DNA of 64,000 nt from an uncultured Methanomicrobiales archaeon (GCA_964551875.1 CAZKEV010000004.1:3398-67397), one strand, 5' to 3'. Shown: positions 11,083-35,639, counted from the first letter of the stretch. Translations and numbers: made by a program. Notes: generated by a model from the letters alone, not told the origin.

Positions 11083-11316
11083 ATGCACACATCTTCATTG
11101 CGGGTGAGCCCTGATACCAAGAGCCGACTGGACCGGCTGAAGGCACACCCGCGTGAATCCTATGACCGGGTCATCGACCGGCTCATCGATTCCTACCATG
11201 ACGAGGAGCCCCTCAGCGATGAGGAGATCGAGGGGATTGAGGAGGCCCTGCGCGAGCTGAAGGAGGGCAGGTTCTACACTCACGAACAGGTGAAGAAGAA
11301 ACTCGGGCTTTCCTGA
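11083..11316 (+). CDS. type II antitoxin (RelB/ribbon-helix-helix-like)
   Basis: 77-aa acidic protein 1 nt upstream of a RelE-family gene. The N-terminal VSPDTKSRLDRLK is a beta-strand/helix-like segment. Confidence 0.6.
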   Translation: MHTSSLRVSPDTKSRLDRLKAHPRESYDRVIDRLIDSYHDEEPLSDEEIEGIEEALRELKEGRFYTHEQVKKKLGLS

Positions 11317-11317
11317 A

Positions 11318-11581
11318 ATGCCCTTCACCCTCCTTTATGCTCCCCGGGCCCTGAAGGACCTGGAGAAGCTCCCGAAGAGAGCGGCCGAGAGGATCCTCAG
11401 CGCCCTCAAGCGCCTGGCAGAAACGGATGAACCCGAACGTTCGGTGAAGCGCCTCCGGAACTCCCCGCTCTATTCCCTCCGCGTGGGTTCCTATCGTGTT
11501 ATCCTCGATATCCGTAGAGAGAAGATTGTCATCTTCGTACTCCGTGCCGGTCCCAGGAAGAGCATATACCATGACCTATAA
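11318..11581 (+). CDS. relE: type II toxin, RelE/ParE family mRNA interferase
   Basis: 87 aa with LPKRAAERILSALKRL....YSLRVGSYRVILDIRREKIVIFVLRAGPRKSIY, typical RelE/StbE architecture. Confidence 0.75.
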   Translation: MPFTLLYAPRALKDLEKLPKRAAERILSALKRLAETDEPERSVKRLRNSPLYSLRVGSYRVILDIRREKIVIFVLRAGPRKSIYHDL

Positions 11582-12419
11582 AGAGAATAAGACCCGTTCC
11601 CGGGTAAAAGCCATCATCTTCGACATGGACAACACCCTCTTCGACTTCGTCGCGGCGAAGCAGCATGCCTGCCGGGAGGTTGCGAAGTTCCTCGGGCGGG
11701 ATGACTGGGAGGCGCTCTTCTCCTGCTTCCTCAACTCGCCCCACGGCTTCGAGAGCCACGAGAACATCAAAGACTATTTTGATCTTTGTGGTCTTCTCGA
11801 ACAATGTTCCACCCGGAAGAACCCGGACGCACGCGGTGAAGGGCAGAACAATCTCCCTAGCGGCTGCTCCCGCTCCCGCGAAGAATGTTCCACCCAGCCT
11901 TCCCACCAGGAAGTCCGGTCTGAAGGGTGGACTAATCTCCTCGCCGACCGGTCCCTCTACTGCAACGAGGTCTTCTCCCGCTGCTGCACCATCTACGAGG
12001 CCGAGAAGGTCCGGGTACTTTCGCCCTACCCCGGCGTCCCCGAGACCCTCGCAGAACTCAAGCGGCGGGGCTTTCCCCTGGCCGTCCTCACCGACGCCCA
12101 CAACGGGAACGCCCTCGCCCGGCTCAGGAAGGTTGACCTCGCCCGGTTTTTTGATTTTATTATCTCTTTCGATATGACGGGGTGCAAGAAACCGGCGCCG
12201 GATGCGTTTTTGCTGGCGCTGAAGAAATTGGGGACTTTGCCGTCGGAGACCTTACTTGTTGGGGATAGCCTCCGAAGGGACATAGCCCCCGCCCAAGCCT
12301 TAGGGATGATTACGGCGTATGCGAAATATGGGGACCGGAATGTCCCCGCAACAACCCCCACACCCTGCAAGCCGGATTATGTGCTCTGCGATATCGGGGA
12401 GCTGGTGGGGTTGTTGTAG
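11571..12419 (+). CDS. HAD-superfamily hydrolase (subfamily IA-like), full-length copy
   Basis: IIFDMDNTLFDF (DxDxT), VLTDA, KKPAPDAF, VGDSLRRDI motifs. The start at ATG 11571 overlaps the relE stop by 11 nt. Confidence 0.8.
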   Translation: MTYKENKTRSRVKAIIFDMDNTLFDFVAAKQHACREVAKFLGRDDWEALFSCFLNSPHGFESHENIKDYFDLCGLLEQCSTRKNPDARGEGQNNLPSGCSRSREECSTQPSHQEVRSEGWTNLLADRSLYCNEVFSRCCTIYEAEKVRVLSPYPGVPETLAELKRRGFPLAVLTDAHNGNALARLRKVDLARFFDFIISFDMTGCKKPAPDAFLLALKKLGTLPSETLLVGDSLRRDIAPAQALGMITAYAKYGDRNVPATTPTPCKPDYVLCDIGELVGLL

Positions 12420-12744
12420 TGTCACATGTTCGGATGGAAAACGCATACGAAGGGGTGATCACGGCCGTACATGCCTTCTCATGGAATAAGCCCCCGGGGG
12501 TGGCAGAGATCGAGGATCAGGCATGGTGGCGGACCTTCTTATTCCCGGTCCTCTGTGCGCTTGTCTTTTCTATCACGAGCACGCTGGCGGATTTTCAGAG
12601 GGTCCACCGTATACTCACATTGATCGGGCATCTCATTACAGAGCTCATCAGGGTGAGCATGTCGATTCAAATTACCGTTATTTTTAAAAACTGGGTAGAT
12701 TTAAATACCGACCCAGAACTATCACAACTATAACTGATCATCGG

Positions 12745-13716
12745 ATGCGGGGTTGGATGAGACAACGTGGAATATTGTTCGTTTTTATCAATGGAATCCT
12801 CTTCTCTCTGATATTGTCGGGACCTGTTACGGGGGCCGGGCCTGCTTCTCCTGGTGTCTTATTGCCGGTCTGTTCAAACCTTCATAACATCACGATCACT
12901 CATTATGATGAAAATACTCCGTCTGCCGGTTCCGGGGACGGAACGGTTATCCCTGCATGGATCTCCGGAACGTCAGGTTCGTTCCAGCTGGAAGCCAAAA
13001 ACGGCATACCCCCGTATCACTGGGCAGTCAAACCGGGATCACAATTGCCGGGACAACAATACGAGATGGGATTTCACCTTTCAGAGAGTGGTGTGATCTC
13101 GGGAACTGCTCCAATGCTATCGCCGTCAGAAACGGTGAGAATCTCTCCGTCATTTACCGTAATGGTATGGGATTCGGATACACCCCCCGCATGCGATGAA
13201 GAGACGCTCTCGATCACCTTTGAACAACCACCTACCCCCTCACCCACAGGGGCACCGCCATCTCCACCAACAACGGTATCGACGGCAGCAACAATTTCCC
13301 CACCTGCCCAAAAACCAGCAACACCGGCATTATCTCCAACGCCTCAAACCACGACTATCACAACAACGGTGATAGAGAACCAGTCCTCCGTCACCCCCGG
13401 TTTTTTCGATGGGATAGCATCATTCTTCACGAACCTGTTCTCCGGAATGTTCAGGAACGCGAATGACCCAATCATAGGTACATGGCAGATAATTCCGACG
13501 AATCTGACAATGCGCTTTGATGCAAATGGCACGGCAATTCTCCAGGATTCAGTGACGGGTTACTCTGCGGTTGGACGGTGGGAGAATATTGCAGAAGACC
13601 AGTACCGGCTCTATTCCAGTAACGGAACCCAGAGCCCGGTTCTCTTGTATGATCCCATCGGGGACGCGTTGTTTACCGAGGATTTCTCCATGGTATTTAT
13701 CAAAGAGGCGAGATGA
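12745..13716 (+). CDS. secreted protein with Ig-like (He_PIG/cadherin-like) domain and Thr/Pro-rich linker
   Basis: Signal/TM segment, GIPPYHWAV....GVISGTAP motif of putative-Ig domains, and a PTPSPTGAPPSPPTT...TTTITTT linker. Confidence 0.55.
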   Translation: MRGWMRQRGILFVFINGILFSLILSGPVTGAGPASPGVLLPVCSNLHNITITHYDENTPSAGSGDGTVIPAWISGTSGSFQLEAKNGIPPYHWAVKPGSQLPGQQYEMGFHLSESGVISGTAPMLSPSETVRISPSFTVMVWDSDTPPACDEETLSITFEQPPTPSPTGAPPSPPTTVSTAATISPPAQKPATPALSPTPQTTTITTTVIENQSSVTPGFFDGIASFFTNLFSGMFRNANDPIIGTWQIIPTNLTMRFDANGTAILQDSVTGYSAVGRWENIAEDQYRLYSSNGTQSPVLLYDPIGDALFTEDFSMVFIKEAR

Positions 13717-13719
13717 GCA

Positions 13720-14901
13720 ATGGGGAAAAATAAGGTAACTGTTCCCTGTGCAATTGTCTGCAGACTGGTAATTCTCATGCTCTTAACTGCCTGCGTAGCG
13801 TTTCTGGTTCCTGTGGTACATGCTGAAGAGAACTATAATTCTTTTTTTGAGGGCTGGAAATGGACACAGACCGATGACATGGTTCGTCTCCCCTTCCTTG
13901 GCGACCTCATCCCCCTTCCTTCCAGTTATGCCGGGAATCCACGAGGTTCCTATGACGGCCCTTGTCCTATTGGTATGAAAGGAGCGCCAGAATTGCGTAA
14001 CACGAGTTTACAATCCGGTGCTTTATGCCGCGGAGCCTGTGGAAGCGATTGTCCGTCAGACCGGTGCAGTAAGGTTCCCAATGTGATCATCGAGATGGAT
14101 GACGGAACCTGCACCTATAGAAATGTAATCGAATGCAAGGCTGCTCAGGGCTGCGTAGACCATGATGCGTGTTATGATTATTGTTCGGAAGCCCTGGCAA
14201 ATTCCATGCTATCCTTCCTCACTTCTGAACGTTTTCACGATCTCTGTCAGATCAGGTGCGATTGGAAATGTTTCAGGGCGTACGATCCGGGAACCTGCGT
14301 TAAATGGGCAGATTTCCCCGGAAAAGTGACAACATTGGGGGGTGGAATAGTAGACTTCATCTTCCCTCCCAGGTACGAGTTCTCTCTTTTTCTCTCTGAT
14401 CCTCCTGAATTCATAAAAAGGGAGACCACACCAACGATCACTCAACCCCCGCCAACACTGACTCGACCGACCAGTACAACGGTACCTCCCACGGTGCCGC
14501 CGACCGGGACCTTCGACGTGAAGATCAACTCTTTGGCTTGTTCCTGGACTGTCAAGACAGGCGACTACGGCGTCAAGAGTGATTGCGTCAGGATAGTTTC
14601 CAAGGGCACAGCGAGAGGGCCTATCGGGGGGAGACTGGAACTTCCTATCCTTGCCTGGTCCACTGACAAGTTCACCTGCGGCGCATGGACCCTCAGGACC
14701 GGGGCGCGTATAGCCGTGGGCAGCACCTGTGTCAGGGAGGCGGGCCAGCCCGAATCAACGACCTGGACGGTGGATACAGAAGGCGATGAGTGTCCCTTGA
14801 GGAATTATTTCATTACCGAGATAACCCACACGGTGAAGATCTACAACGATGATGAACTGACCCCCCAGAAGGAAGACAGCGAGAGGGCTGTATGCCAGTG
14901 A
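13720..14901 (+). CDS. secreted Cys-rich protein with phospholipase-A2-like CxxHDxCY motif and Thr/Pro linker
   Basis: N-terminal TM/signal segment. LCRGACGSDCPSDRC and GCVDHDACYDYC motifs. TPTITQPPPTLTRPTSTTVPPTVPPT linker. C-terminal beta-rich domain. Confidence 0.5.
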   Translation: MGKNKVTVPCAIVCRLVILMLLTACVAFLVPVVHAEENYNSFFEGWKWTQTDDMVRLPFLGDLIPLPSSYAGNPRGSYDGPCPIGMKGAPELRNTSLQSGALCRGACGSDCPSDRCSKVPNVIIEMDDGTCTYRNVIECKAAQGCVDHDACYDYCSEALANSMLSFLTSERFHDLCQIRCDWKCFRAYDPGTCVKWADFPGKVTTLGGGIVDFIFPPRYEFSLFLSDPPEFIKRETTPTITQPPPTLTRPTSTTVPPTVPPTGTFDVKINSLACSWTVKTGDYGVKSDCVRIVSKGTARGPIGGRLELPILAWSTDKFTCGAWTLRTGARIAVGSTCVREAGQPESTTWTVDTEGDECPLRNYFITEITHTVKIYNDDELTPQKEDSERAVCQ

Positions 14902-14933
14902 GCCGTTTGAAAGTTACCTGATTACCAATTCAC

Positions 14934-15293
14934 TGGCGGCGGGGCTTTCCCCTGGCAATCGTTACCGTTGCTTACAATGGGAACGCCATTGCCCGGCTCA
15001 GGAAGGTGGGCCTCGACGGATACTTTGATTATATTATTTCTTTCGATACGACGGGCTGCAAGAAACCGGCGCCGGATGCGTTCCTGCTGGCGTTGAAGAA
15101 ATTGAATACTTTGCCGTCCGAGACCCTCCTCGTCGGCGACAGCCTCCGCCGCGACATCGCACCGGCACAGGCTATAGGTATGATCACGGCATACGCGAAG
15201 TACGGGGACCGGAATGTCCGGACCGGTAATCCTCCGAACTGCCGGCCGGATTATGTGCTGGTGACCATTGAGGAGCTGGTGGGGTTGGTGTAG
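14934..15293 (+). pseudogene. HAD hydrolase 3'-end fragment (copy B)
   Basis: Encodes RRGFPLAIVTVAYNGNAIARLRKVGLDGYFDYIISFDTTGCKKPAPDAFLLALKKL...ELVGLV*. This is collinear with residues encoded by 12062..12419 of the full gene. No 5' half is present. Confidence 0.8.
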
Positions 15294-15554
15294 GGATGAT
15301 CCCTCTCCTCCGGTCGATGAATTCCCTAATCACGATTAGTACTAATCAGGATTAGGATCTTCATCGTAGATCGCCAGCCTGTAGACAGCATTGGGATTGT
15401 GGATCTGCCCAGGAGACTTGTCCCGGCGATCTCGGGAAAGGGTTCCGGGGTGAAGCAATAGGAGTCAGCAAACCAGAGAACAGGCTGCTGAGAAGGAAAG
15501 TGCCGGAACAATCCTTTATCCCATTCCCTGCTCATATTTTCCCTGGAGCAGGTC

Positions 15555-15875
15555 ATGCCCCAACCGCATCCCTATCCCGAGGCCGTCGCTTCCTTCGTAG
15601 CCCGGGCGAAAGCCCGGTATAAAAGGCACATCGACCAGGTCTTTCTCTTCGGTTCTGTTGCCCGGAAGGAGGCCCGGAAGGATTCGGATATCGATCTCCT
15701 CGTCCTGTGGAAGGGCGACCTTGACGAGGGATGGCGGGCGATGGCCGGGATCGCCTTTGACATCCTGCTGGAGACCGGTACCTACATCTCCGTCAAGGTA
15801 ATGCGTTCCGGCGGTCTCACGGGGAAGACCGCCTTCGAGCGGAACGTCATGGCAGAAGGGATGACCGTTGCATGA
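15555..15875 (+). CDS. minimal nucleotidyltransferase (MNT) antitoxin-type protein
   Basis: LFGSVARKEARKDSDIDLLV (GSx10-11 DxD NTase motif). Overlaps the downstream HEPN gene by 8 nt. Confidence 0.8.
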   Translation: MPQPHPYPEAVASFVARAKARYKRHIDQVFLFGSVARKEARKDSDIDLLVLWKGDLDEGWRAMAGIAFDILLETGTYISVKVMRSGGLTGKTAFERNVMAEGMTVA

Positions 15876-16257
15876 ATATTCCCTTCGACCTGCCTATGAA
15901 ACCCTGAAGGCTGCATCGTACCTTCTGGAGGGAGGATACTCCAACGATGCGGTGAGCAGGGCATACTACGCCATGTTCTACGCAGCCCGTGCCCTTCTTG
16001 CGTCACGCGACATGTACCCGAAGGGGCACAAGGGCCTGATCATCCAGTTCGGGCTGGAATGCGTGAAGAAGGGCCTTATCGAGGAGTCCTACGGGCGGAG
16101 CCTGGCCCACGCGAAGGACCGCAGGGAGTTCTTCGACTACAGCGCAGACACCCAGGTTGCCCCTGAAGAGGCAGCCCGGATGGTGGAGGACGCCCGCGCC
16201 TTTGTCGACCGCATCAGGAAGGCTTTCGCAGACCTGGGTATCGATCCGGAGATCTGA
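15868..16257 (+). CDS. HEPN domain protein (toxin-type partner of MNT)
   Basis: Helical 129-aa protein with AVSRAYYAMFYAARALL and RREFFDY motif, paired with the NTase. Confidence 0.75.
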   Translation: MHEYSLRPAYETLKAASYLLEGGYSNDAVSRAYYAMFYAARALLASRDMYPKGHKGLIIQFGLECVKKGLIEESYGRSLAHAKDRREFFDYSADTQVAPEEAARMVEDARAFVDRIRKAFADLGIDPEI

Positions 16258-16633
16258 AGGGATGGAATGCCGTCCTTCCTGCTGGGGAGATTCTCTCCCT
16301 CCTTCCTTGAGGATATCTGGATGGCTGATTATCAGACGCCGGAGATGAGCATCGGACCAACTTACTGTATCATTTTCACGTGAAACAGTAGTCGGGACCT
16401 CGATAGTTCCGGATCGGAAACAAAATGTTTCCGGATCAGCGGCCATTCCCAACCATGGCGGCGGCAGGTCCCCCGCGAGGGGAGCCGTATCCGCGAGAAA
16501 CTCTATCTCCTCAAGAACGCAGGATTTTCTTCGGAAGATAGAGTACTCCGACTTTGAGCTGTACGATACAGGCTCAGTGTAAGGTTATCCTGCATTGCCT
16601 CAGGAGCGATAGGGCTGATGTAAGGTGATCACA

Positions 16634-16764
16634 GGTTGACTTAGGATGGCAACGGGATCGATAAGGTTATGCGATGTTGACCTGGAGAAAGAGGCTGGTT
16701 TTGATGGTACTCCTGGTTGACTTAGGGGCCGATGCTCTATATAAGTGAACTTTTGTTGACTTAC
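16634..16764 (+). promoter_or_regulatory. four GTTGAC(T/C) direct repeats spaced ~39-42 nt upstream of the Fic gene, with TATA-like CTATATAAG at ~16736
   Basis: GGTTGACTTAGG at 16634 and 16715, GATGTTGACC at 16673, TTGTTGACTTA at 16753. Confidence 0.45.
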
Positions 16765-16802
16765 AAGACAATTTATCATGTTAAAGGCTGGAAATAGTAC
16801 GT

Positions 16803-17960
16803 ATGGATTCGTACTCTGAGAACAGAGCGGGTGTTTTTGTTCATCAGGACGGGGGATATGACACATTTGTCCCGCACCCGTTGCCTCCAAAAGGCCTGGA
16901 TCTTGACGAAGGCCTTTTATTCCTGCTTTCAAAGGCTGATAGTGCACTGGCACGTTTGGATGGTGTCACCCAGGTCCTCCCGAACCCTGACCTGTTCGTC
17001 GCGATGTACGTGAAGAAAGAGGCACTCCTAAGTTCCCAGATCGAGGGTACACAGGCCTCGCTCCAGGGTGTCCTGGAATTCGAAGCCCATATGAAACCGA
17101 AAGATGATATCAACGAGATACGGGAAGTCCTGAATTACATCAAGGCCCTGCATCACGGCATCGAGAAGCTGGAATTTTCAGATGTATCTCTCGATCTGAT
17201 CCACGAGATCCACAGGTTCCTGATCAAGGGAACCAGGGGGACGCACAGGCTCCCCGGTCAGCTCCGGAGGGTACAGAACTGGATAGGCCTTCACGGAGGC
17301 ACGATCCATGATGCTGTATTCATTCCCCCGCCACCGGAGAAAGTCCCGGAGTTGATGGGAGACCTGGTACAGTTCATCCAGGCCGGGGACAAAACCCCGA
17401 CCCTCGTCAAGGCCGCACTCATCCATGCCCAGTTCGAGACGATCCATCCTTACCTGGATGGAAACGGGAGAATGGGAAGATTACTGGTAACCTTTTACCT
17501 CTGTAGAGAAGGCGTATTATCGAGACCCCTCTTATACCTGAGTTATTACCTGAAGAAGAACCGCGAGAGGTACTATTCACTCCTCAACGAGGTACGGCAC
17601 CAGGGAAACTGGGAGGCCTGGCTGGAGTTCTTCTTCCAGGGGGTCATCGAGGTCTCCGGCAACTCGATCGAGACGGCAAAGCGGATCATCCGGCTGAAGG
17701 GCGAGTTGATCGAGAAGCTCCTGGAGAGCAATATCAGCGGCGTTCACGCAGTCAAACTGGTGGACGACCTGTTTATTCATCCGGTCATGACCATTGCACA
17801 GGCTGCCGATGCCCTGAGGATCAGCCGCCAGGCGGCCACAAAACTGGTGGGAAAATTCGAGAGAATCGGCATCTTAAAGGAGATCACCGGAAAGGAGCGG
17901 TATAAAAGGTATATCTTTATCGACTATGTGAAGATCATCGAAGAAGGTACACGGACCTGA
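16803..17960 (+). CDS. Fic family protein (AMPylase-type) with C-terminal wHTH-like region
   Basis: HPYLDGNGRMGRLL matches the Fic motif HxFx(D/E)GNGRxxR. 385 aa. Confidence 0.85.
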   Translation: MDSYSENRAGVFVHQDGGYDTFVPHPLPPKGLDLDEGLLFLLSKADSALARLDGVTQVLPNPDLFVAMYVKKEALLSSQIEGTQASLQGVLEFEAHMKPKDDINEIREVLNYIKALHHGIEKLEFSDVSLDLIHEIHRFLIKGTRGTHRLPGQLRRVQNWIGLHGGTIHDAVFIPPPPEKVPELMGDLVQFIQAGDKTPTLVKAALIHAQFETIHPYLDGNGRMGRLLVTFYLCREGVLSRPLLYLSYYLKKNRERYYSLLNEVRHQGNWEAWLEFFFQGVIEVSGNSIETAKRIIRLKGELIEKLLESNISGVHAVKLVDDLFIHPVMTIAQAADALRISRQAATKLVGKFERIGILKEITGKERYKRYIFIDYVKIIEEGTRT

Positions 17961-18074
17961 TGAATTCCAGCCGGGCACAAGCCCGTCTTCCCGGATAAAA
18001 AGACCGAAAAAGAACTTCACAGAAGAGTTCCCCTACCCCCTTATCCCCGAGACCCACCTTTCCGTTTCTCCCCA

Positions 18075-18486
18075 CAGCAGGGTCCTTGAGCCCTACCCCG
18101 GCCTCCGCGAGACCCTCGCGGAACTCAAACGGCGGGGCTTTCCCCTGGCTGTCCTCACCGATGCGCACAACGGGAACGCCCTCGCCCGGCTCAGGAAGGT
18201 GGACCTCGTCCACTTCTTTGATTTTATTATTTCTTTCGATATGACGGGCTGCAAGAAGCCTGCCCCGGATGCATTTTTATTAGCTTTAAGAAAATTGCAG
18301 ACTTTGCCTTCGGAGACGTTACTTGTTGGTGATAGCCTCCGACGTGACATTGCTCCGGCTCAGAAATTGGGGATGATTACAGCGTATGCGGCTTATGGGG
18401 ACAGGAATATCCGAACCCCGGACCACCCACAATGCAGGCCGGATTTTGTGCTGACGACCATTGAGGAGCTGGTAGGGTTGGTGTGA
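18075..18486 (+). pseudogene. HAD hydrolase 3'-end fragment (copy C)
   Basis: Encodes ..PYPGLRETLAELKRRGFPLAVLTDAHNGNALARLRKVDLVHFFDFIISFDMTGCKKPAPDAFLLALRKL...ELVGLV*, collinear with ~12008..12419. No 5' half is present. Confidence 0.8.
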
Positions 18487-18654: not shown

Positions 18655-19119
18655 ATGTTCTTATCATTTATTGATCGCGCAAAGAGGCAATATTATAAAC
18701 TCGTCCTGATTATTGGAAATTTTGGGCTAAAAAAATCTAAATTCCTTCTCAAATATTGCTTTGATGAAGGACTTTTTTATTATAATCTTAATCTCGAACT
18801 GAGTAAACGCTTGATTGGAATTCCATCTGACCATCGAATCTCATCAATTGAAACAACGGTGGGAGAGGTCCTCCAATCGAATCCAGGGAATTCCCTAGTC
18901 CTTGATCATATCGAACTACTTTATGTGAGAGAATTCTGTCTTCAACCCTTACAACTTCTCAAAACGCATAGTAGGAATAAAGTAATTATCGTTGCGTGGA
19001 ATGGTGAGTATGATGGAAAGAAACTAACGTATGGTAAAAGTGGCGATGAAGAATATCAGGAGTATGTAAGAGATGAGCTTAAAGGCATAGAAATTGTTCG
19101 AATCGAGGATCTGGAGTGA
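18655..19119 (+). CDS. brxF: BREX type 3 small P-loop-like protein BrxF
   Basis: 154-aa first gene of the operon, in the position and of the size of BrxF. P-loop-like LIIGNFGLKKSKF. Confidence 0.6.
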   Translation: MFLSFIDRAKRQYYKLVLIIGNFGLKKSKFLLKYCFDEGLFYYNLNLELSKRLIGIPSDHRISSIETTVGEVLQSNPGNSLVLDHIELLYVREFCLQPLQLLKTHSRNKVIIVAWNGEYDGKKLTYGKSGDEEYQEYVRDELKGIEIVRIEDLE

Positions 19120-19123
19120 GATA

Positions 19124-22100
19124 ATGAAATACGGCGAACTTGTAGCGTTTGAACCCATTGAAGAAATAGTCCAGCTTCGGGAAGCTGACAAAAAAAGTGA
19201 GGCTATACGTCTGATTAAAACTTATGTTATTTCTGAGGGTATGGCAAAAAACCTTCAGAATGCTGTTTTCCCTCAACTCGACCATTCAAGTGCGCTTGAT
19301 AAAAAAGGGCTTTTTATCGTCGGAAATTATGGAACCGGGAAATCACATTTGATGGCAGTCATCAGCTCAATTGCTGAAGATGTCGAGATGGTGTCGTATC
19401 TTCAGAACGCTGCACTTCAGAACGATGCAAAGACAATTGCAGGCTCATTCAAAATCATCAGACTTGAGATTGGTGCATCCAAAAAGAATCTTAGAGATAT
19501 CATCTGCGGAGAACTTGAAAAAGGATTGAAGAATTTCGGAGTAACCTACCAATTCCCCCCTTTTAGCGAAGTAACAAATAACAAAGACTTCCTCGTCGAA
19601 ATGATGGGATATTTTCATGAAAAATATTCGGATAAAGGTTTGCTCCTCGTTGTAGACGAACTCCTCGATTATCTGCGCTCACGTTCTGAAGGAGAACTGA
19701 TTCTTGACCTGAATTTCCTCCGTGAGATCGGTGAGGTCTGCCGTCTTTCAAAATTCAGATTCATGGCTGGCATTCAGGAAGCATTGTTCGACAATCCTCG
19801 GTTCGGATTTGTCGCAAACTCAATACAGCGAGTCCAGGCAAGATTCCACCAGGTCAGAATTCTCAAAGAGGATGTTTCGTTTGTCGTCGCAGAACGTCTT
19901 TTAAGGAAGGATGCCAAGCAGAAGGCAAAAATTCGTAATCATCTCCAGAAATTTACGCCATACTACGGTGATATGAACGAACGGCTTGAGGAATATGTCC
20001 GGCTCTTCCCCGTTCATCCTGCTTATCTCGAATCCTTTGAACGCATGTATATCGTCGAGAAACGAGATGTTCTCAAGACCTTAAGCAGAGAGATCAAATC
20101 TTTAATCGGTACAAAAGTCCCGGAGGAGGAACCCGGCATCATCTCGTTTGACTCGTATTGGAATGCTATGAAGGCTGATGCCTCGCTCGCGACCAACCCA
20201 GATATCAAAAATGTTCTCGAGAAAGGTCAGATCCTTGAAGGCATTCTCCAGAAATCGTTCCCAAAACCACAATACCGCCCATCGGCTATCAGGATTATCC
20301 ACGCTTTGGCGGTTCACCGTCTCACAACAGGTGAAATTTTTGCACCGATCGGGATGAATTCAGAAGCAATCCGTGATGAGCTCTGCATCTTCTTGCCCAT
20401 TCCGGAAAAGGATTCCGAATTTCTCAGATCAACCGTTGAGACAATAATGCGTGATATCAGCAAGACGGTGAGCGGACAATTCATTTCCTCAAATGAGAGC
20501 AACGGGCAATATTACCTCGATCTGAAAAAAGACATCGATTACGATGCCCAGATCATAAAAAGAAGTGAAACGTTAGATACCTACAAACTTGACCATTATT
20601 ACTTCGACGCCCTCGCTCGAGTGATGGAAAGGCCCGAAACAACGTATGTTCCCGGTTATAGAATCTGGGAGCATGAACTGATTTGGAAGGAGAGGAATTC
20701 CGGGCGATTGGGATACCTCTTCTTTGGAGCTCCCAATCAGCGCTCGACAGCGCAGCCTCCACAGGATTTCTACATCTATTTCATCCAGCCATTTGATACT
20801 CCGGAGTTTACCGATGAGAGAAAACCCGATGAGGTATTTTTTTATCTCGTCGACCGACCGGAGGAATTCGATACCGCTCTACGCTTGTATGCAGGTGCCC
20901 GGGAGATGGCGAGCACATCAGGGGCAACTACCAAACGGATCTACGAGGATAAAGCAAGTGAGTATCTCAAGACCATGGTAAAATGGCTGCGGGAGCATAT
21001 ATTCACCGCCTTCGATGTCGTCTACCAGGGAGATCGCAGAAAGCTGGTCGAATGGGCAAAAGGTGCGGCGATTCCAACGGGCGCCGATGTCAGGGAGACG
21101 ATTGACAAGCTTGCTGCTTCATGTCTGGCACCCCACTTTGCTGAAATTGCACCCGACTATCCGAAGTTCTCTCAGGTCATCCGAAAGACCGATCGTGAGG
21201 AGGCGATGAGGGACGCGATAAAGATCTTGCGAGGAAGCGGTCTCAGGACCCAGCGTGGTATCGCAGTTCTCGACGGACTGGAACTACTGGAAGGAGATAC
21301 AATCTCACCAGATAAATCGAAATATGCCCGCTATCTCCTAAAATTGTTGCAGAAGCGTGGAGAAGGCCAGGTCCTCAACCGATCGGATATCATCAGCAAT
21401 GTCCGAGGGATCGAGTTTGATGAGAAGTTCCATGTCGAACCAGAACTGGTTATGGTCGTGCTTGCTGCCCTCGTGTACCATGGAGATCTCGTCATTGCCT
21501 ATCCAGGGAAGAAGATCGATCCCACCATGCTGGATGATCTCGCAAAGATGAACCACGATGACCTGATCGCGTTCAAACACCTGGAACAGCCGAGGAGTAC
21601 GCCGATAGAAACTCTCGCCGAGCTCTTCACCATGCTCTCTCTCACACCAGGGCTGATCAAAAATCCTGATACACAGAATGAGGCGATAAAAGCACTTCAG
21701 ACAGAAGTTACCCGACGCCTGGAACAGCTTGTGGAAATCCAGCAGAAATTGCAGAACCGGCTGACCCTCTGGAGTGTTGAACTCCTCTCCGATCAGGAGC
21801 GAGAGCAGATCCGGTCCCAGGTGGATGGATTAAAGGAATTTCTCGAATCGCTCCAACGGTTCAATACCCCGGGAAAACTGCGGAATTTCCCACATACGAA
21901 ATCAGATATTGTGCGGCAGAAGAGCGGCTTTGAGGCTATCAAGGAACTCGATCAGCTGACCAAGTTTGTGGCTGAGTTCTCTCCATTGGTGGCCTACCTT
22001 TCAGAGGCTGAGGTGATCCTTCCTACCGATAACCCGGCCCGGGTGGCGATTGGGGAGGCAAAGAAACGATTCGCCTCGGATTTGCAAGATTCAAAGAAAA

Positions 22101-22813
22101 GGCTTGACCGGGAATTCCGCACTGACCTGACCCGTGAGCTTGAACGGTTGAAGCAGGGCTACATAGAAAATTACTTTGATCTCCACCGTCACGCAAGACT
22201 CGGCGTGCAGGAAGATGATCTGAAGAAGACGTTGATGAACGATTCCCGTCTCAAACAGCTCACCAGCCTCGCGAGCATTGAGATCTTGCCCAAGCGACAA
22301 CTCACCGAATTCCAGACCATGCTCTCTGCTAATATGATGACCTGCTTCTCCCTGACTGACAAGGACCTGGAATCATCGACGATATGTCCCTATTGTAAAT
22401 TCCGCCCCATGGAGCAGCTGGAGGTAAAACCGGTTAATCAGCTAATCTATGAGCTGAATGATCAACTCGATGATCTCTACCAGGATTGGACCTCCACTCT
22501 CTTGACTAATCTTGAGGATCCTATAGTGAAGAAGAACATCGGGCTCCTCAAGGCACAGGAGAAGAAGTTGATCCAGGAATTCATAATCTCAAAGTCCCTT
22601 CCGGCAGACCTCCCCAGTCCCTTCCTCAGAGCCCTTCAGGATGTCTTCACCGGCCTTGAGAAAGTAACTATTAAACTCGATGACCTCAGGAAGGCACTGA
22701 TGGAGAAGGGTTCCCCGTGTACGGTCGATGATCTTCAGAACCGATTCGAAGAGTATGTTGCATCCCTGATGAGAGGAAAGGATGTGAAGAAGGTCCGTAT
22801 TGTGGTGGAGTGA
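19124..22813 (+). CDS. brxC: BREX ATPase BrxC/PglY
   Basis: ~1229 aa. Walker A GNYGTGKSHLM, Walker B-like LLLVVDELLD, long helical C-terminal region. I chose the ATG at 19124, 4 nt after the brxF stop. Confidence 0.8.
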   Translation: MKYGELVAFEPIEEIVQLREADKKSEAIRLIKTYVISEGMAKNLQNAVFPQLDHSSALDKKGLFIVGNYGTGKSHLMAVISSIAEDVEMVSYLQNAALQNDAKTIAGSFKIIRLEIGASKKNLRDIICGELEKGLKNFGVTYQFPPFSEVTNNKDFLVEMMGYFHEKYSDKGLLLVVDELLDYLRSRSEGELILDLNFLREIGEVCRLSKFRFMAGIQEALFDNPRFGFVANSIQRVQARFHQVRILKEDVSFVVAERLLRKDAKQKAKIRNHLQKFTPYYGDMNERLEEYVRLFPVHPAYLESFERMYIVEKRDVLKTLSREIKSLIGTKVPEEEPGIISFDSYWNAMKADASLATNPDIKNVLEKGQILEGILQKSFPKPQYRPSAIRIIHALAVHRLTTGEIFAPIGMNSEAIRDELCIFLPIPEKDSEFLRSTVETIMRDISKTVSGQFISSNESNGQYYLDLKKDIDYDAQIIKRSETLDTYKLDHYYFDALARVMERPETTYVPGYRIWEHELIWKERNSGRLGYLFFGAPNQRSTAQPPQDFYIYFIQPFDTPEFTDERKPDEVFFYLVDRPEEFDTALRLYAGAREMASTSGATTKRIYEDKASEYLKTMVKWLREHIFTAFDVVYQGDRRKLVEWAKGAAIPTGADVRETIDKLAASCLAPHFAEIAPDYPKFSQVIRKTDREEAMRDAIKILRGSGLRTQRGIAVLDGLELLEGDTISPDKSKYARYLLKLLQKRGEGQVLNRSDIISNVRGIEFDEKFHVEPELVMVVLAALVYHGDLVIAYPGKKIDPTMLDDLAKMNHDDLIAFKHLEQPRSTPIETLAELFTMLSLTPGLIKNPDTQNEAIKALQTEVTRRLEQLVEIQQKLQNRLTLWSVELLSDQEREQIRSQVDGLKEFLESLQRFNTPGKLRNFPHTKSDIVRQKSGFEAIKELDQLTKFVAEFSPLVAYLSEAEVILPTDNPARVAIGEAKKRFASDLQDSKKRLDREFRTDLTRELERLKQGYIENYFDLHRHARLGVQEDDLKKTLMNDSRLKQLTSLASIEILPKRQLTEFQTMLSANMMTCFSLTDKDLESSTICPYCKFRPMEQLEVKPVNQLIYELNDQLDDLYQDWTSTLLTNLEDPIVKKNIGLLKAQEKKLIQEFIISKSLPADLPSPFLRALQDVFTGLEKVTIKLDDLRKALMEKGSPCTVDDLQNRFEEYVASLMRGKDVKKVRIVVE

Positions 22814-25422
22814 TCGAAACGACAGAAAAAAAGGAATACCGTCTCACGAAAGAAATCCTCGACCAGATGCGGACCATCAAAGGATTTCCCCTCGGTAAAG
22901 ACGAAGATATCATCGCACTCTCTGATCCACTGTATTATACCGCATGTCCGAACCCGTGGATTGGCGAGTTCATCAAAGAACATGGGAAATCCTACGATCC
23001 AGCGACCGATACCTACCAGCGGGAGCCGTTTGCCGCCGATGTGAGCGAAGGTAAGAACGATCCGATTTACAATGCCCATTCTTATCACACAAAGGTCCCG
23101 CATAAAGCCATTATGCGGTATATCCTGCACTACACCGAACCTGGCGATATCGTCTTCGATGGATTCTGCGGGACCGGGATGGCCGGCGTTGCAGCACAGC
23201 TCTGTGGGAATCCGGACCCAGAATTTAAAGAACAGATCGAGCGGGAAATGCCGTACATAAAATGGGGTGTACGAAAGGCGATACTCAATGATCTCTCCCC
23301 AGCGGCGACGTTCATAGCGTACAACTACAACACCCCGGTTGATGTTGTGAAATTAGAACGCGAGGCAAAACGTATCATTGCTGAAGTCGAGAGAGAATGC
23401 GGTTGGATGTATGAGACACCGCATCTGGTGGACGGTAAACCAATATTAACGGAAGAAATTGACGGAGCAAAACGACAGGTGAAAGGACGGATCAATTTCA
23501 CTGTATGGAGTGACGTATTCATCTGCCCCTCATGTGCCAAAGAGATGACCTTTTGGGAAGTTGCTGTGGATCTCGAGCATGGTCAGATGCTTGATGAATT
23601 CCACTGCCCTCACTGCGATGCATCTGTAACAAAACGGAGTCTTGAACGGGCACGAGAATCTGTCTTTGATGATGCACTCCAAACTACTATTAAAAGGGCA
23701 AAACAGGTGCCAGTGCTCATTAATTACAGCGTTCAGGACGTTAAAGGGAAATGGAAGCGTTTTGAGAAAACACCGGATGAAACTGATTTTACGTTAATTA
23801 AAAAAATTGAGGAGAAGAAAATACCGTACTGGTATCCAACCAACAGGATGCCAGAGGGTGATGAATCCCGAAGAAATGATGATATTGGAATAACCCATGT
23901 GCATCATTTTTATACAAAAAGAAATTTATGGATATTATCAACACTATTCCAAAAAGTTTTATCATTTGATAAGGAGATCGGCAGAAAAATATTGTTTGCA
24001 TTCAATAATGTTCAGCAAAGACATTGCAAAATGAACGCTTTCCGATTTAATGTTTCTTTTCCTTCAAATATTACGAGTGGAACGTTATATGTCGCATCCC
24101 TTATGCGTGAAAGTAATTTTTTTGATCAACTGGAGAATAAAATTCTTAGAAGATTACTTCCAATTTTTCGAGAGAAATCATATTCCAAAGAGAATTTTGT
24201 AATCGAAACTAATAGTGCACAATTCACTAAACCGCAGAGAAATTCCATCGATTACATCTTTGTCGATCCCCCCTTCGGCGGAAATCTCATGTATTCTGAG
24301 CTGAACTTTCTCTGGGAAGCGTGGCTCAAAGTCTTTACCAACAACCAGCAAGAAGCACTCGTTAATACCGCCCAGCGGAAAGGATTGGCCGAATATCAGC
24401 ACATCATGGAGGAATGTTTCAAAGAGTTCTACAGTATTCTCAAACCCGGACGCTGGATGACCGTAGAATTCCATAATTCTCAGAATTCTGTCTGGATGGC
24501 GATTCAGGAGGCGCTCTCCCGTGCCGGTTTTGTTGTCGCTGATGTCCGCACGCTTGATAAGAAACTGGGTACGTTTAAGCAAGTAACTTCAAAAGGGGCG
24601 GTCAAGCAGGACCTCATCATCTCCGCCTACAAACCAAACGGCGGGCTGGAGGAGCGGTTCAAGCTCACCGCAGGCAAAGTTGAGGGTGTCTGGGATTTTG
24701 CCCGGCAACATCTGAAGCACCTGCCCGTTGTGGTTGAGAAGGACGGTGTGCTCCAGGTTGTCGCGGAACGGCAACCCCATCTCCTCTTTGACCGGATGGT
24801 GGCTTTCCATGTCCAGCGGGGTGTAATCGTGCCGATATCAGCCGGTGACTTTTATGCCGGACTCCGGCATCGTTTCCCAGAGCGGGATATGATGTACTTC
24901 CTTGAACAGGAGGCATTGGAGTACGATAAGAAAAGGATGATCGCAAAGCGTGTAGAGCAGACCTCGCTTTTCGTCCACGATGAGAAGAGTGCTGTCCAGT
25001 GGCTCCAGACCGAACTCACCGATCACCCGCAGACATATCAGGATATCCAGCCGAAGTTTCTCCAAGAGCTGCACCAGGATAAGTTCGAGAAACTACCGGA
25101 GCTTTCTGAAATATTAAATGAAAATTTCCTGCAGGACGCTTCTGGCAAATGGTATGTGCCGGACCCGAACAAGCAAGCAGATTTAGATAAAATACGGGAG
25201 AAGGCGCTCCTCAGGGAATTTGAGGAGTACAAAGTGACGAGAGTGAAACTCAAGATGTTCCGCACTGAAGCGGTCCGAACGGGATTTAAAAAATGCTGGT
25301 CAGAACGTGATTATGCAACGATTATCGCCATCAGCGAACGACTGCCGCTTCAGATACTCCAGGAAGATCCGGATCTCTTGATGTACTATGACAATGCGGT
25401 GACGAGGGCCGTTTCAAAATAA
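22810..25422 (+). CDS. pglXI: BREX type 3 DNA methyltransferase PglXI (N6/N4 MTase family)
   Basis: FDGFCGTGMAG (SAM motif I) and IFVDPPFGGN (motif IV, DPPF). GTG start overlaps the brxC stop (GTGA). Confidence 0.8.
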   Translation: MIETTEKKEYRLTKEILDQMRTIKGFPLGKDEDIIALSDPLYYTACPNPWIGEFIKEHGKSYDPATDTYQREPFAADVSEGKNDPIYNAHSYHTKVPHKAIMRYILHYTEPGDIVFDGFCGTGMAGVAAQLCGNPDPEFKEQIEREMPYIKWGVRKAILNDLSPAATFIAYNYNTPVDVVKLEREAKRIIAEVERECGWMYETPHLVDGKPILTEEIDGAKRQVKGRINFTVWSDVFICPSCAKEMTFWEVAVDLEHGQMLDEFHCPHCDASVTKRSLERARESVFDDALQTTIKRAKQVPVLINYSVQDVKGKWKRFEKTPDETDFTLIKKIEEKKIPYWYPTNRMPEGDESRRNDDIGITHVHHFYTKRNLWILSTLFQKVLSFDKEIGRKILFAFNNVQQRHCKMNAFRFNVSFPSNITSGTLYVASLMRESNFFDQLENKILRRLLPIFREKSYSKENFVIETNSAQFTKPQRNSIDYIFVDPPFGGNLMYSELNFLWEAWLKVFTNNQQEALVNTAQRKGLAEYQHIMEECFKEFYSILKPGRWMTVEFHNSQNSVWMAIQEALSRAGFVVADVRTLDKKLGTFKQVTSKGAVKQDLIISAYKPNGGLEERFKLTAGKVEGVWDFARQHLKHLPVVVEKDGVLQVVAERQPHLLFDRMVAFHVQRGVIVPISAGDFYAGLRHRFPERDMMYFLEQEALEYDKKRMIAKRVEQTSLFVHDEKSAVQWLQTELTDHPQTYQDIQPKFLQELHQDKFEKLPELSEILNENFLQDASGKWYVPDPNKQADLDKIREKALLREFEEYKVTRVKLKMFRTEAVRTGFKKCWSERDYATIIAISERLPLQILQEDPDLLMYYDNAVTRAVSK

Positions 25423-25544
25423 TATGGGACGGAAGGATCCGTTTCATGAATTCAAACTACGTATTACTCCAGCTCAAGGTTTTTAACGGGATGTTTATGA
25501 TATGGAATCGACCAATCGAAATATAACAATCCCCATTTTCCTCT

Positions 25545-32697: not shown

Positions 32698-32740
32698 TAT
32701 GTTTCTTGAACGGCAACGGGCCCTGATGCTCCGGGGAGGG

Positions 32741-33623: not shown

Positions 33624-33635
33624 GTGAGAACCGTC

Positions 33636-33923: not shown

Positions 33924-34057
33924 CGATCTCTGTTTAGGTTCTCCCGCTTTTTATAGGTATAGTGTTAAATGCAACGCGATTCGAGAGTAGAATCATTTAA
34001 CACGACTGGAGAAGATCCAGAGGGTCTTTGATTGTAAGGGCGGTCATCACGAGGAAT

Positions 34058-34853: not shown

Positions 34854-34856
34854 GTT

Positions 34857-35579: not shown

Positions 35580-35639
35580 CACCCTATAAATCTTCGGGTA
35601 AAATCTCTCCTCTTCCCAAGGATGTGGAGAACCGTCCTA

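What the first reader, a model, noticed from the sequence alone, without database searches (positions are those of the whole stretch)
12008..18486. Three copies of the HAD hydrolase 3' end bracket two cargo cassettes
The last ~360-410 nt of the HAD gene (full copy 11571..12419) recur at 14934..15293 and 18075..18486. They are on the same strand, each ends at its own stop codon, and none has a 5' half.

The copies are diverged rather than identical. Examples are GTLPSE/NTLPSE/QTLPSE and different C-terminal PATTPTPCKPDYVLCD / RTGNPPNCRPDYVLVT / RTPDHPQCRPDFVLTT.

This is the signature of successive integrations of elements that carry their own replacement copy of the target gene end. The gene stays intact while older ends are displaced downstream.

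Cargo:
- E1: two secreted proteins.
- E2: MNT/HEPN plus Fic.

No recombinase is visible in either cassette.
Basis: partly seen in the sequence, partly recalled or inferred. Interest (0 to 1): 0.7.

Follow-up and report, generated by a model that had tools for sequence, protein, structure and literature searches.

The report
Gene-end repeats bracket archaeal defence cassettes
In this methanogen chromosome, truncated diverged copies of the tail ends of two ordinary genes (a HAD hydrolase and QueC) separate short toxin-antitoxin and anti-virus gene cassettes. No integrase is present, so foreign cassettes were probably added by ordinary homologous recombination rather than by a dedicated mobile element.

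Summary
The HAD gene is at 11571-12419. Its 3' end recurs at 14934-15293 (aa 165-282) and 18080-18486 (aa 148-282), on the same strand, each ending at its own stop.

The copies are 71-85% identical, with dN/dS about 0.17 and dS 0.6-0.9. They therefore diverged as working genes in different lineages and were imported, not duplicated in place.

The window comes from a Methanomicrobiales archaeon. About 20 related loci show the same site holding different cassettes between partial HAD copies: SoFic, MNT-HEPN, an SDH protease. After the last copy comes BREX, Dnd, type I/III RM or HerA. One relative has no array.

A second array of the same kind follows QueC (30933-31583; partial copies at 32740, 34025 and 35629).

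No recombinase was found in the window or in any locus examined. Left junctions differ between cassettes, the copies are patchwork mosaics, and scars of older copies remain.

My best explanation (0.5) is homology-anchored additive integration of fragments from related species, followed by gene conversion and deletion. A recombinase acting in trans is the main rival (0.2).

E1 is the ancestral neighbour rather than cargo, and E2 is two separate cassettes.

The parts
11083..11581 (+). RHH (DUF7557) antitoxin plus ParE toxin pair, directly upstream of HAD and overlapping its start. The pair is linked to HAD in most relatives.
   Evidence: Pfam. The same order is seen in L001, L069, L074 and L072.
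11571..12419 (+). Full-length HAD-family hydrolase with all catalytic motifs and a clade-specific variable insert in the cap domain, about aa 78-135. The repeated segment is 12013-12419.
   Evidence: Pfam PF00702 matched 1-191/191; alignment with relatives.
12745..14901 (+). This is the usual, probably ancestral, downstream neighbour of HAD.
   Evidence: No Pfam match. Orthologues follow HAD in L074, L002, L024, L016, L018, L028, L075 and L023.
14934..15293 (+). Partial HAD copy B (aa 165-282, open frame, own stop). It is the most decayed copy, with TDA changed to TVA and DMTG to DTTG.
15294..16281 (+). MNT (15555-15875) and HEPN (15868-16257) toxin-antitoxin cassette. It is contiguous with copy B in other species, at about 84% identity.
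   Evidence: Pfam; PADLOC PDC-S09; L016 4007-5248 and L032 20-1237 are collinear with window 14935-16281.
16387..18030 (+). Discrete, recently exchanged SoFic cassette (Fic gene 16803-17960). It has a sharp left edge at 16387 and a right edge at ...GAGTTC. A three-half-site GGAAAC motif lies at 16405-16437.
   Evidence: L001 11085-13194 matches window 16387-18484 at 92% overall and is near-identical across the cassette part; L014 1011-2693 matches at 95.9%. Core flanks are only 80-86% identical. PADLOC SoFic E=2e-118. Motif.
18031..18079 (+). Scar made of a 25-nt HAD micro-fragment (aa 151-159, 18031-18055) plus 24 nt of filler. It is the remnant of an earlier partial copy that directly followed Fic, as it still does in L014.
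   Evidence: Direct repeat 18031-18055 / 18091-18115; junction alignment.
18080..18486 (+). Partial HAD copy C (aa 148-282, open frame, own stop).
18655..30822 (+). Complete type 3 BREX system (BrxF, BrxC/PglY, PglXI, BrxHII, PglZ, BrxA) with low G+C (36-52%). It fills the space from copy C's stop to the QueC start. Relatives carry Dnd, type I/III RM, HerA and other systems in this position.
   Evidence: PADLOC; Pfam; composition; relatives.
30933..31583 (+). Full-length QueC. It is the conserved right flank of the defence island and the head of a second gene-end array.
   Evidence: Pfam PF06508; synteny in L056-L061 and L071.
31653..32697 (-). HEPN (31653-32096) and HTH-MNT (32083-32697) cassette between QueC and partial copy Q2.
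   Evidence: Pfam. A 65%-identical HEPN follows HAD in L025.
32740..32954 (+). Partial QueC copy Q2 (aa 148 to the end).
32980..33923 (-). Cassette of HepT-like HEPN (32980-33330), MntA-like (33327-33623) and a second MNT (33636-33923).
   Evidence: ORFs; relatives' Pfam calls; tblastn.
34025..34384 (+). Partial QueC copy Q3 (aa about 103/113 to the end). It is orthologous to the working QueC 3' end of relative L064.
34401..35582 (-). HEPN (34401-34853) and HTH-MNT (34857-35582) cassette. It is orthologous to the single cassette after QueC in L064.
   Evidence: Pfam; L064 1114-2752 matches window 34058-35741; 75-81% aa identity.
35629..35883 (+). Partial QueC copy Q4 (aa 133 to the end), followed by further TA-rich DNA.

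Best explanation
The HAD and QueC genes flank a hypervariable defence/toxin-antitoxin island in a clade of Methanomicrobiales. I propose that arrays form without a dedicated recombinase, in four steps.

1. A DNA fragment from a related species enters the cell. The fragment starts inside the conserved 3' part of the gene and carries whatever lies downstream of the gene in the donor.
2. The fragment is added to the chromosome rather than swapped in. One end is anchored by homologous recombination in the gene's 3' block. The other end is an illegitimate junction. That junction forms either when the fragment circularises (Campbell-type or 'ends-in' pop-in) or at integration (homology-facilitated illegitimate recombination).
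3. The result is: intact gene (now with a hybrid 3' end), cassette, truncated gene end, old downstream DNA.
4. Once several copies exist, any copy can be a target. Cassettes are then gained, lost and exchanged by recombination between copies. Gene conversion scrambles the copies, and deletions leave scars.

Shown: the import of diverged functional gene ends, the cassette turnover at this site, the mosaicism, the heterogeneous junctions and scars, and the absence of recombinase genes.

Inferred: the recombination pathway itself, and the idea that the cargo is biased toward TA/defence genes because direct repeats of 200-450 nt would otherwise delete anything that is not addictive or under selection.
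For: - The copies diverged under purifying selection: dN/dS 0.16-0.20 and dS 0.6-0.9 within the window, and 0.14 among partial copies of eight loci. All frames in the window are open.
- Within full-length HAD genes, synonymous diversity is 0.26 in the N-terminal block and 0.25 at aa 165-188, but 0.49 at aa 189-257. This is expected if 3' ends are repeatedly swapped in, with crossovers in the conserved aa 148-190 block.
- In the HAD alignment, the nearest neighbour of each copy changes every 60-100 nt. There are 96-100% identical patches between copies of one genome or of different genomes.
- HAD copies (70-88% identical) are more diverged than the cassettes beside them (Dnd 90%, SDH cassette 92%, Fic 96-97%).
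- Each cassette type has its own junction, shared by descent between genomes. These are Fic|aa151, SDH|aa136, sec2|aa165, motif|aa145 and aa141 for HAD, and aa 103-154 for QueC. The Fic cassette abuts a HAD stop plus 71-nt spacer in L001, L014 and L017, but abuts unrelated DNA in the window.
- Scars are present: a 25-nt HAD fragment at 18031-18055, a 69-nt remnant in L016/L018, and an 84-nt QueC remnant in L064.
- 'Cargo' can be the donor's ordinary neighbour: E1-like genes.
- No integrase or transposase was found among the long non-overlapping window ORFs scanned (about 57), nor among the proteins scanned or carrying precomputed Pfam calls in about 20 related loci.
- No HAD end occurs in IMG/VR. 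The Fic-plus-copy-C segment (16387-18486) has no relevant match in phage or plasmid records.
Against: - Left junctions are not random along the genes. All six HAD junction types fall within aa 136-165 (a seventh copy, L020, may reach aa 109), and all the QueC junctions found fall within aa 103-154. This needs an added assumption: short repeats integrate poorly and long ones delete quickly. A degenerate recombination site would also explain it.
- The switch from 97% to about 80% identity at both ends of the Fic cassette lies within about 20 nt of its edges. That is sharper than random crossovers in 400-nt arms would usually give.
- Recombination between sequences about 80% identical is normally inefficient.
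- The low-G+C BREX island cannot have come from a close relative, so its entry is not explained.
- A 50-nt motif with three GGAAAC half-sites recurs near HAD-copy boundaries and could be a protein-binding site.
- No DNA-uptake or transfer route is known for these uncultured archaea.
Confidence: 0.5

Rival explanations
1. Site-specific accretion by a recombinase encoded elsewhere. In this view the cassettes are integrase-less elements, comparable to cis-mobilisable elements, satellite tycheposons or Xer-dependent IMEX elements. Their attachment site would overlap the conserved block of the HAD (or QueC) 3' end, and each integration would displace the previous gene end.
For: - The overall architecture matches: same-strand gene-end repeats, an intact gene, and older ends downstream.
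- Left junctions cluster in a 90-nt (HAD) or 150-nt (QueC) zone.
- A nearly invariant 35-nt stretch (CACAACGGGAACGCCCTCGCCCGGCTCAGGAAGGT) sits just inside most HAD copies. Copy B differs from it at 5 positions.
- The Fic cassette has sharp edges.
- A conserved three-half-site motif recurs near boundaries.
- Elsewhere in the window, a 44-nt 98%-identical direct repeat of a gene start flanks another integrase-less insertion.
Against: - No recombinase gene was found in any array or anywhere in the 64-kb window.
- Two different target genes would need two specificities.
- Junction positions differ from cassette to cassette instead of sharing one core.
- The low synonymous diversity of the putative core is no lower than that of the gene's N-terminal block.
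- The gene ends beside near-identical Fic cassettes are unrelated alleles.
- The GGAAAC motif is absent from the other window cassette boundaries (only one copy in the window, at the Fic left end) and from the QueC-array loci fetched.
Confidence: 0.2
2. Local tandem duplication of 'gene end plus neighbour', followed by divergence in place, with the partial copies being decaying pseudogenes.
For: The repeats are tandem and same-strand. Two of the three QueC cassettes have the same HEPN + HTH-MNT architecture. Q3 against Q4 gives dS 0.04 and dN/dS about 1.1.
Against: - HAD copies differ at dS 0.6-0.9 with dN/dS 0.17 and have no frame disruption. That is not neutral decay.
- The cargo between copies is unrelated: secreted proteins, MNT-HEPN, Fic.
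- The Fic cassette is 92-97% identical to copies in species whose core DNA is 80-86% identical.
- Relatives hold different cassettes at the same site.
Confidence: 0.03
3. Assembly artefact: strain variants of one locus concatenated by the assembler.
For: The window probably comes from a metagenome. The copies share exact stretches of up to about 35 nt, which could mislead small-k assembly graphs.
Against: - The junctions join non-HAD sequence to the middle of HAD, which shared k-mers cannot produce.
- Junctions recur in independent assemblies and in other species at 80-97% identity.
- The analogous QueC array is seen in more than 20 contigs from different samples.
Confidence: 0.02

Closest known systems
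Tycheposon arrays next to tRNA genes in Prochlorococcus genomic islands (bioRxiv 10.1101/2020.12.28.424599)
   Same: Successive integrations at one site push older elements further into the island. Partial copies of the target gene are scattered through the island, and some units carry only cargo.
   Different: Tycheposons target tRNA genes, carry or derive from tyrosine-recombinase elements, and have short uniform att repeats. Here the targets are protein genes, the repeats are 200-450 nt and 70-88% identical with non-uniform left ends, and no recombinase was found.
ICE/IME/CIME accretion at the 3' end of protein genes, for example ICESt1/ICESt3 and cis-mobilisable elements in fda of Streptococcus thermophilus (from my own knowledge, not checked here)
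   Same: Integration is into the 3' end of a housekeeping gene, which stays intact. Tandem arrays include units that lack a recombination module.
   Different: Those arrays have short identical att repeats, and a cognate integrase is present in at least part of the array. They are bacterial.
MGE-free 'core defence hotspots' and HGT hotspots turned over by recombination in flanking core genes (PMC10250203, PMC5635113; found, abstracts only)
   Same: A fixed chromosomal site between conserved genes holds a different defence system in each strain (here BREX, Dnd, RM, HerA, Schlafen), without mobility genes.
   Different: Those hotspots are described as allelic replacement between flanks. Truncated copies of the flank gene between cassettes are not a described feature. 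They are bacterial.
Orphan Rhs / CdiA-CT toxin-immunity cassette arrays (from my own knowledge)
   Same: A full-length gene is followed by displaced, diverged 3' fragments, each with its own downstream partner gene. The arrays are built and reshuffled by homologous recombination.
   Different: In those systems the variable 3' end is itself the payload (a toxin domain). Here the gene ends are conserved enzyme tails with no evident payload role.
Sedentary chromosomal integrons
   Same: Arrays of small promoter-poor cassettes rich in toxin-antitoxin genes, separated by a repeated sequence.
   Different: Integrons have an adjacent IntI gene, an attI site and structured attC sites. None was found here.
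Merodiploids and Campbell-type insertions produced by transformation with chromosomal fragments, for example in Streptococcus pneumoniae, and 'ends-in' gene targeting in yeast (from my own knowledge)
   Same: Homologous recombination of a circular or ends-in fragment inserts DNA and duplicates the homology segment.
   Different: These are known as laboratory or transient events with identical repeats. They are not known as a standing, cross-species way of building defence arrays.

Membership tests
Integrase-borne integrative element (prophage, ICE, tycheposon type) inserted in a gene 3' end | A tyrosine or serine recombinase gene inside the element, next to one att site | tested here: not met
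   Pfam scans of the long non-overlapping window ORFs (about 57) and of cassette ORFs in relatives found none. The precomputed Pfam calls in 20 loci show none either.
Integrase-borne integrative element (prophage, ICE, tycheposon type) inserted in a gene 3' end | Direct repeats (attL/attR) with a common, uniform core at the element borders | tested here: not met
   The repeats exist, but their left ends differ by cassette (aa 136, 141, 145, 148, 151, 165) and the copies are only 70-88% identical.
Integrase-borne integrative element (prophage, ICE, tycheposon type) inserted in a gene 3' end | The element supplies a replacement gene end that travels with it | tested here: not met
   Fic cassettes 96-97% identical to each other sit beside HAD ends of unrelated allele classes in L001, L014 and L017. 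B + MNT-HEPN and copy + Dnd do travel together, but only at background divergence.
Cis-mobilisable / recombinase-in-trans element (CIME, IMEX-like) | Flanked by functional att sites recognised by a recombinase encoded elsewhere in the genome | not testable with these tools
The conserved 35-nt block and the GGAAAC motif are candidates only.
Integron | An intI gene plus attI next to the array, with attC hairpin sites between cassettes | tested here: not met
   Genes upstream of HAD are RHH-ParE and a C69 peptidase; upstream of QueC is BrxA. The inter-cassette repeats are coding gene ends. There is no Rfam hit in 8000-41000.
MGE-free defence hotspot turned over by homologous recombination | The same site between conserved genes holds different defence systems in related genomes, without mobility genes | tested here: met
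   BREX in the window; Dnd in L001, L013 and L056; radical-SAM/UDG plus type I RM in L069; HerA/DUF6884 plus type III RM in L020; SNF2/Schlafen in L050; nearly empty in L071.
MGE-free defence hotspot turned over by homologous recombination | Signs of recombination in the flanking genes | tested here: met
   Mosaic HAD copies. Excess synonymous diversity in the gene's 3' part. HAD region 84% identical while the upstream flank is 92.7% identical in L069.
BREX type 3 (the island after copy C) | BrxF, BrxC/PglY, PglXI, BrxHII, PglZ and BrxA in one operon | tested here: met
   PADLOC matches for all six genes, from E=0 to 5e-36.

The most novel reading that the evidence does not exclude
These arrays may represent an undescribed, general way in which archaea without conventional mobile elements assemble defence and toxin-antitoxin islands. 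In this reading, cassettes hitch-hike on a 200-450-nt tail of a conserved host gene, which serves as portable homology. Alternatively, they may be moved by an unknown trans-acting enzyme that recognises the GGAAAC three-half-site motif or the conserved block. Either way this would be a cassette-exchange system with the function of an integron but a different mechanism, operating at several genes in one genome (HAD, QueC, and possibly the 44-nt repeat at the Sm_multidrug_ex gene).
Probability: 0.2. Interest if true: 0.8.

Novelty: new variant of a known kind. Interest (0 to 1): 0.6.

Why it matters
How defence islands are assembled when no mobile-element genes are present is an open question, and for archaea almost nothing is known.

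This locus offers a readable record. Each truncated gene end marks one acquisition event. The same site can be compared across about 20 related genomes. Two neighbouring genes show the same behaviour.

If the mechanism is homology-anchored addition, then ordinary recombination alone can stack foreign defence and toxin-antitoxin cassettes. That would help explain why such cassettes cluster.

If instead a trans-acting recombinase is responsible, the arrays point to its attachment sites.

Truncated copies of conserved gene ends could also serve as a simple computational marker for such hotspots in uncultured archaea.

Tried and rejected
- **Recombinases.** Pfam scans of about 57 long window ORFs and 10 cassette ORFs from relatives found none.
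- **tRNA and Rfam.** There are no tRNA genes in the window and no Rfam family in 8000-41000. This argues against tRNA-type att sites and known structured sites.
- **IMG/VR scan** with the HAD 3'-end alignment found no relative.
- **Phage and plasmid BLAST** with the Fic cassette plus copy C gave only distant bacterial Fic genes, or nothing.
- **Exact-protein look-up of Fic** found only one short Logan contig, so the source genome itself could not be recovered.
- **A universal boundary motif.** The GGAAAC-N5-GTTTCC motif occurs once in the window and only in some HAD arrays, so it is not a general att site. Its folding is unremarkable.
- **Terminal inverted repeats or target duplications of the Fic cassette.** None is convincing.
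- **Short-query BLAST of all inter-copy spacers** against every fetched locus gave nothing beyond orthologous positions.
- **Linkage test: does each gene end travel with the cassette on its right or on its left?** It was inconclusive, because gene conversion has scrambled the copies.
- **Low synonymous diversity at aa 165-188 as evidence for an att core.** Rejected, because the N-terminal block is equally low.
- **Literature searches** found analogues but no description of this arrangement. One query failed on syntax.

Full report
**1. Observation**

The ORF at 11571-12419 is a complete HAD-family hydrolase. Pfam PF00702 matches end to end.

Its last roughly 400 nt recur twice downstream on the same strand. 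The repeat finder groups 12013-12312, 14887-15186 and 18080-18379, at 71% and 85% identity to the first copy. tblastn places copy B at 14937-15290 (aa 165-282, E=3e-57) and copy C at 18079-18483 (aa 148-282, E=4e-69).

In the nucleotide alignment, homology starts abruptly and stops at each copy's stop codon. Nothing downstream aligns.

The junctions left of the partial copies join non-HAD DNA to the middle of HAD. The Fic-to-C junction also appears in a Logan contig (L011) that is 100% identical to the window, although this may derive from the same sample as the window. The junctions recur in diverged form in other species. An assembly artefact is therefore excluded.

**2. Organism and context**

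A scan of GTDB representative genomes with the HAD protein returned only Methanomicrobiales MAGs (Methanoregula and Methanolinea relatives). The best hit was 66% identical, so the source genome itself is not in that collection.

The closest flank found, in L069, is 92.7% identical over 6 kb upstream.

Contents of the window, left to right:
- core genes up to about 7.6 kb;
- a variable stretch;
- RHH-ParE-HAD;
- the HAD array;
- a complete type 3 BREX system at 18655-30822, with G+C 36-52% against 55-60% elsewhere;
- QueC at 30933-31583;
- a second array and a toxin-antitoxin-rich stretch;
- then a P-type ATPase, transporters and pycAB.

There is no tRNA gene. No recombinase or transposase domain was found in any long non-overlapping ORF scanned.

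**3. The copies were imported, not duplicated in place**

Pairwise Nei-Gojobori estimates for A, B and C give dS 0.68-0.87 and dN/dS 0.16-0.18. Among partial copies from eight loci, dN/dS is 0.14. Catalytic motifs are kept in nearly all partial copies.

So the divergence accumulated while the sequences were parts of working genes. The copies are as different from one another as orthologues of different species in this clade, whose core DNA is 80-86% identical.

**4. The site across relatives**

I gathered about 20 informative loci and mapped them with tblastn and blastn.

| Locus | Arrangement downstream of HAD |
|---|---|
| L001/L022 | HAD, Fic, partial (aa 148-282, frameshifted), DndBCDEA |
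| L012+L013 and L069 | HAD, 60-aa ORF + SDH-type protease, partial (aa 138-282), then Dnd + Mrr, or radical-SAM/UDG + type I RM |
| L014/L017 | SDH protease, partial, Fic, partial |
| L016/L018 | HAD, secreted protein, 69-nt HAD remnant, secreted-protein remnant, partial (aa 144-282), MNT-HEPN |
| L020 | HEPN, HAD copy, HerA/DUF6884 + type III RM |
| L025 | HAD, then HEPN-MNT on the minus strand |
| L027 | HAD, 640 nt, partial |
| L050 | HAD end, SNF2 helicase / Schlafen |
| L071 | HAD, two small ORFs, helicase fragment, QueC; no partial copy (the nearly empty site) |

More distant Methanoregula and Methanolinea HAD genes (L003-L005) lack both the cap insert and the arrays.

None of these loci encodes an integrase. 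The HAD 3' end has no relative in IMG/VR.

**5. A second array in the same window**

The last 200-340 nt of QueC recur at 32740-32954, 34025-34384 and 35629-35883, with left ends at aa 148, about 103/113, and 133. HEPN-MNT pairs on the minus strand lie between the copies.

Relatives show QueC arrays with other cargo:
- MNT + HepT, then a partial copy (L056-L061, seen on more than 20 contigs);
- a 458-aa Fic, then a partial copy, with further partial copies and HepT-MNT and MNT genes downstream (L068);
- NERD + HepT-MNT, then a partial copy (L071).

A more distant QueC locus (L065, 73% identity) has no array.

In L064 the full QueC 3' end, one HEPN-MNT cassette and an 84-nt QueC remnant are collinear with window Q3, cassette 3 and Q4 at 78% identity. 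Q3 was therefore once the end of the working gene, and the two cassettes now upstream of it were added later.

**6. What the cassettes are**

E1 (12745-14901), or its sec2 C-terminal domain, follows HAD in at least eight other loci, at the same divergence as HAD itself. L074, for example, has sec1 at 68% aa, sec2 at 66% aa and HAD at 67% aa identity. E1 is therefore the ordinary neighbour of HAD, not evident cargo.

Copy B plus MNT-HEPN (14935-16281) is collinear with L016 and L032 at about 84% identity, so it is old.

The Fic cassette (16387-18030; PADLOC SoFic) is 92-97% identical to L001 and L014, although those genomes' core DNA is 80-86% identical to the window. It has been exchanged recently.
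- Its left edge follows a HAD stop codon plus a conserved 71-nt spacer in L001, L014 and L017, but follows 105 nt of unrelated DNA in the window.
- Its right edge (...GAGTTC) abuts a HAD copy starting at aa 151 in L014.
- In the window and in L001, only 25 nt of that copy remain (18031-18055). These are followed by 24 nt of filler and then another copy starting at aa 148.

**7. Evidence about the mechanism**

- **(a) Junctions.** Each cassette type has its own left junction in HAD: aa 136, 141, 145, 148, 151 or 165. The same junction is shared by genomes that carry the same cassette. There is no common core.
- **(b) Mosaicism.** The nearest neighbour of each HAD copy changes every 60-100 nt. 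Patches 96-100% identical occur between copies in one genome (L012 full and L013 partial; L014 left and right; window A and C at 92-95% over the first 150 nt) and between genomes. Overall, copies are 70-88% identical. That is less than the adjacent cassettes (Dnd 90%, SDH 92%, Fic 96-97%).
- **(c) Diversity gradient.** In full-length genes, synonymous codon diversity is 0.26 in the N-terminal block, 0.25 at aa 165-188, and 0.49 at aa 189-257. The 3' tail therefore draws on a deeper allele pool than the rest of the gene.
- **(d) Allele classes.** C-terminal allele classes (PATTPTPCKP, RTG[DN]PPNCRP, RGRDPPDCRP) are distributed without regard to whether a copy is full-length or partial, or to the neighbouring cassette.
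- **(e) Scars and decay order.** Remnants of copies show turnover by deletion. The most decayed copies (B and Q2) lie nearest the working gene, so insertion is not confined to the working copy.

**8. Interpretation**

These features fit best with addition of foreign chromosomal fragments, anchored by homologous recombination in the conserved 3' block and closed by one illegitimate junction. That is Campbell-type or 'ends-in' pop-in, or homology-facilitated illegitimate recombination. Recombination, gene conversion and deletion among the copies then follow.

This also explains why an ordinary neighbour such as E1 can behave as 'cargo'. By inference, it explains why the surviving cassettes are toxin-antitoxin or defence genes: direct repeats of this length would quickly delete neutral DNA.

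Weak points:
- the left junctions cluster in a 90-150-nt zone;
- the edges of the Fic cassette are sharp;
- recombination at about 80% identity is inefficient;
- the origin of the low-G+C BREX island is unexplained;
- a 33-50-nt motif with three GGAAAC half-sites was found only near HAD-copy boundaries, in four independent contexts within 575 kb of fetched DNA.

These points keep a trans-acting site-specific recombinase alive as the main rival. In-place duplication and assembly artefact are rejected.

**9. Comparison with known systems**

The architecture resembles tycheposon arrays at tRNA genes, where incoming elements push older ones into the island and leave partial tRNAs. From my own knowledge, it also resembles ICE/CIME accretion at the 3' ends of bacterial protein genes. 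Those systems have recombinases and short uniform att repeats, and both features were tested here and not met.

It matches the definition of an MGE-free defence hotspot (PMC10250203, PMC5635113), with the added feature of truncated flank-gene copies between cassettes.

In logic it parallels orphan Rhs/CdiA-CT arrays and transformation-generated merodiploids (my own knowledge).

I found no description of this arrangement in archaea, though the searchable library is incomplete.

**10. Verdict**

The feature is real and recurrent. It is a new variant of a known kind, of moderate to high interest, and its mechanism is unresolved. Confidence in the homology-driven explanation is 0.5.

Noticed in passing
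window 30933-35883: A second array of the same kind. The 3' end of QueC is repeated three more times (32740-32954, 34025-34384, 35629-35883), with HEPN-MNT pairs on the minus strand between the copies. Relatives have QueC arrays with different cargo.
   Followed up: yes
window 18655-30822: A complete type 3 BREX system (BrxF, BrxC, PglXI, BrxHII, PglZ, BrxA) with G+C 36-52%, against 55-60% around it. It fits between the stop of HAD copy C and the start of QueC. Nucleotide homology with relative L056 resumes 2 nt before the QueC start codon (window 30931).
   Followed up: partly
window 44900-44943 and 48625-48668: A 44-nt direct repeat, 98% identical, equal to the first 44 nt of the minus-strand Sm_multidrug_ex gene. 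It flanks a 3.7-kb insertion (CHAT-domain protein 45288-47939 plus a 159-aa ORF) that splits two genes which are adjacent in relative L064. No recombinase is present. A paralogous pair at 50329-54258 sits between CNNM and pycA without detectable flanking repeats.
   Followed up: partly
window 16405-16437; L016 3908-3940; L020 360-392; L027 721-753: A conserved 33-50-nt motif, GATCCGGAAAC-N5-GTTTCC-N4-CCGGAAAC (three GGAAAC half-sites, small hairpin). It was found only within about 200 nt of HAD-copy boundaries, in either orientation. Its function is unknown.
   Followed up: partly
window 11800-12010 (HAD aa about 78-135): The HAD cap domain carries a clade-specific, low-complexity insert whose length varies greatly between relatives (total protein 264-392 aa). 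In L020 it contains tandem repeats. It ends just upstream of the zone where the partial copies begin.
   Followed up: no
window 7637-11034 versus L069 6118-9466: The stretch upstream of RHH-ParE-HAD is also variable. The window has PEMT, a 188-aa ORF and a C69 peptidase. L069 has an arylsulfotransferase, DUF7557, DUF3368 and HTH/M78 genes. Several relatives carry extra RHH/ParE or RelE-like pairs here. HAD therefore sits inside a flexible region rather than at its edge.
   Followed up: partly
window 16630-16760 and 35516-35578, 36927-36968: Repeated GTTGAC-containing palindromes (for example TTGTTGACT...AGTCAACA) lie upstream of the Fic gene and of the HTH-MNT genes. They are probably operator sites of the cassette regulators.
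   Followed up: no
window 35909-40200: Downstream of the last QueC copy is a dense run of small toxin-antitoxin-like genes: several MNT genes, a HicB-like gene, a winged-helix gene plus a 179-aa ORF, and a MazF/PemK gene at 38851-39186. Two MNT pairs are paralogous (33326-33915 versus 37010-37609).
   Followed up: no
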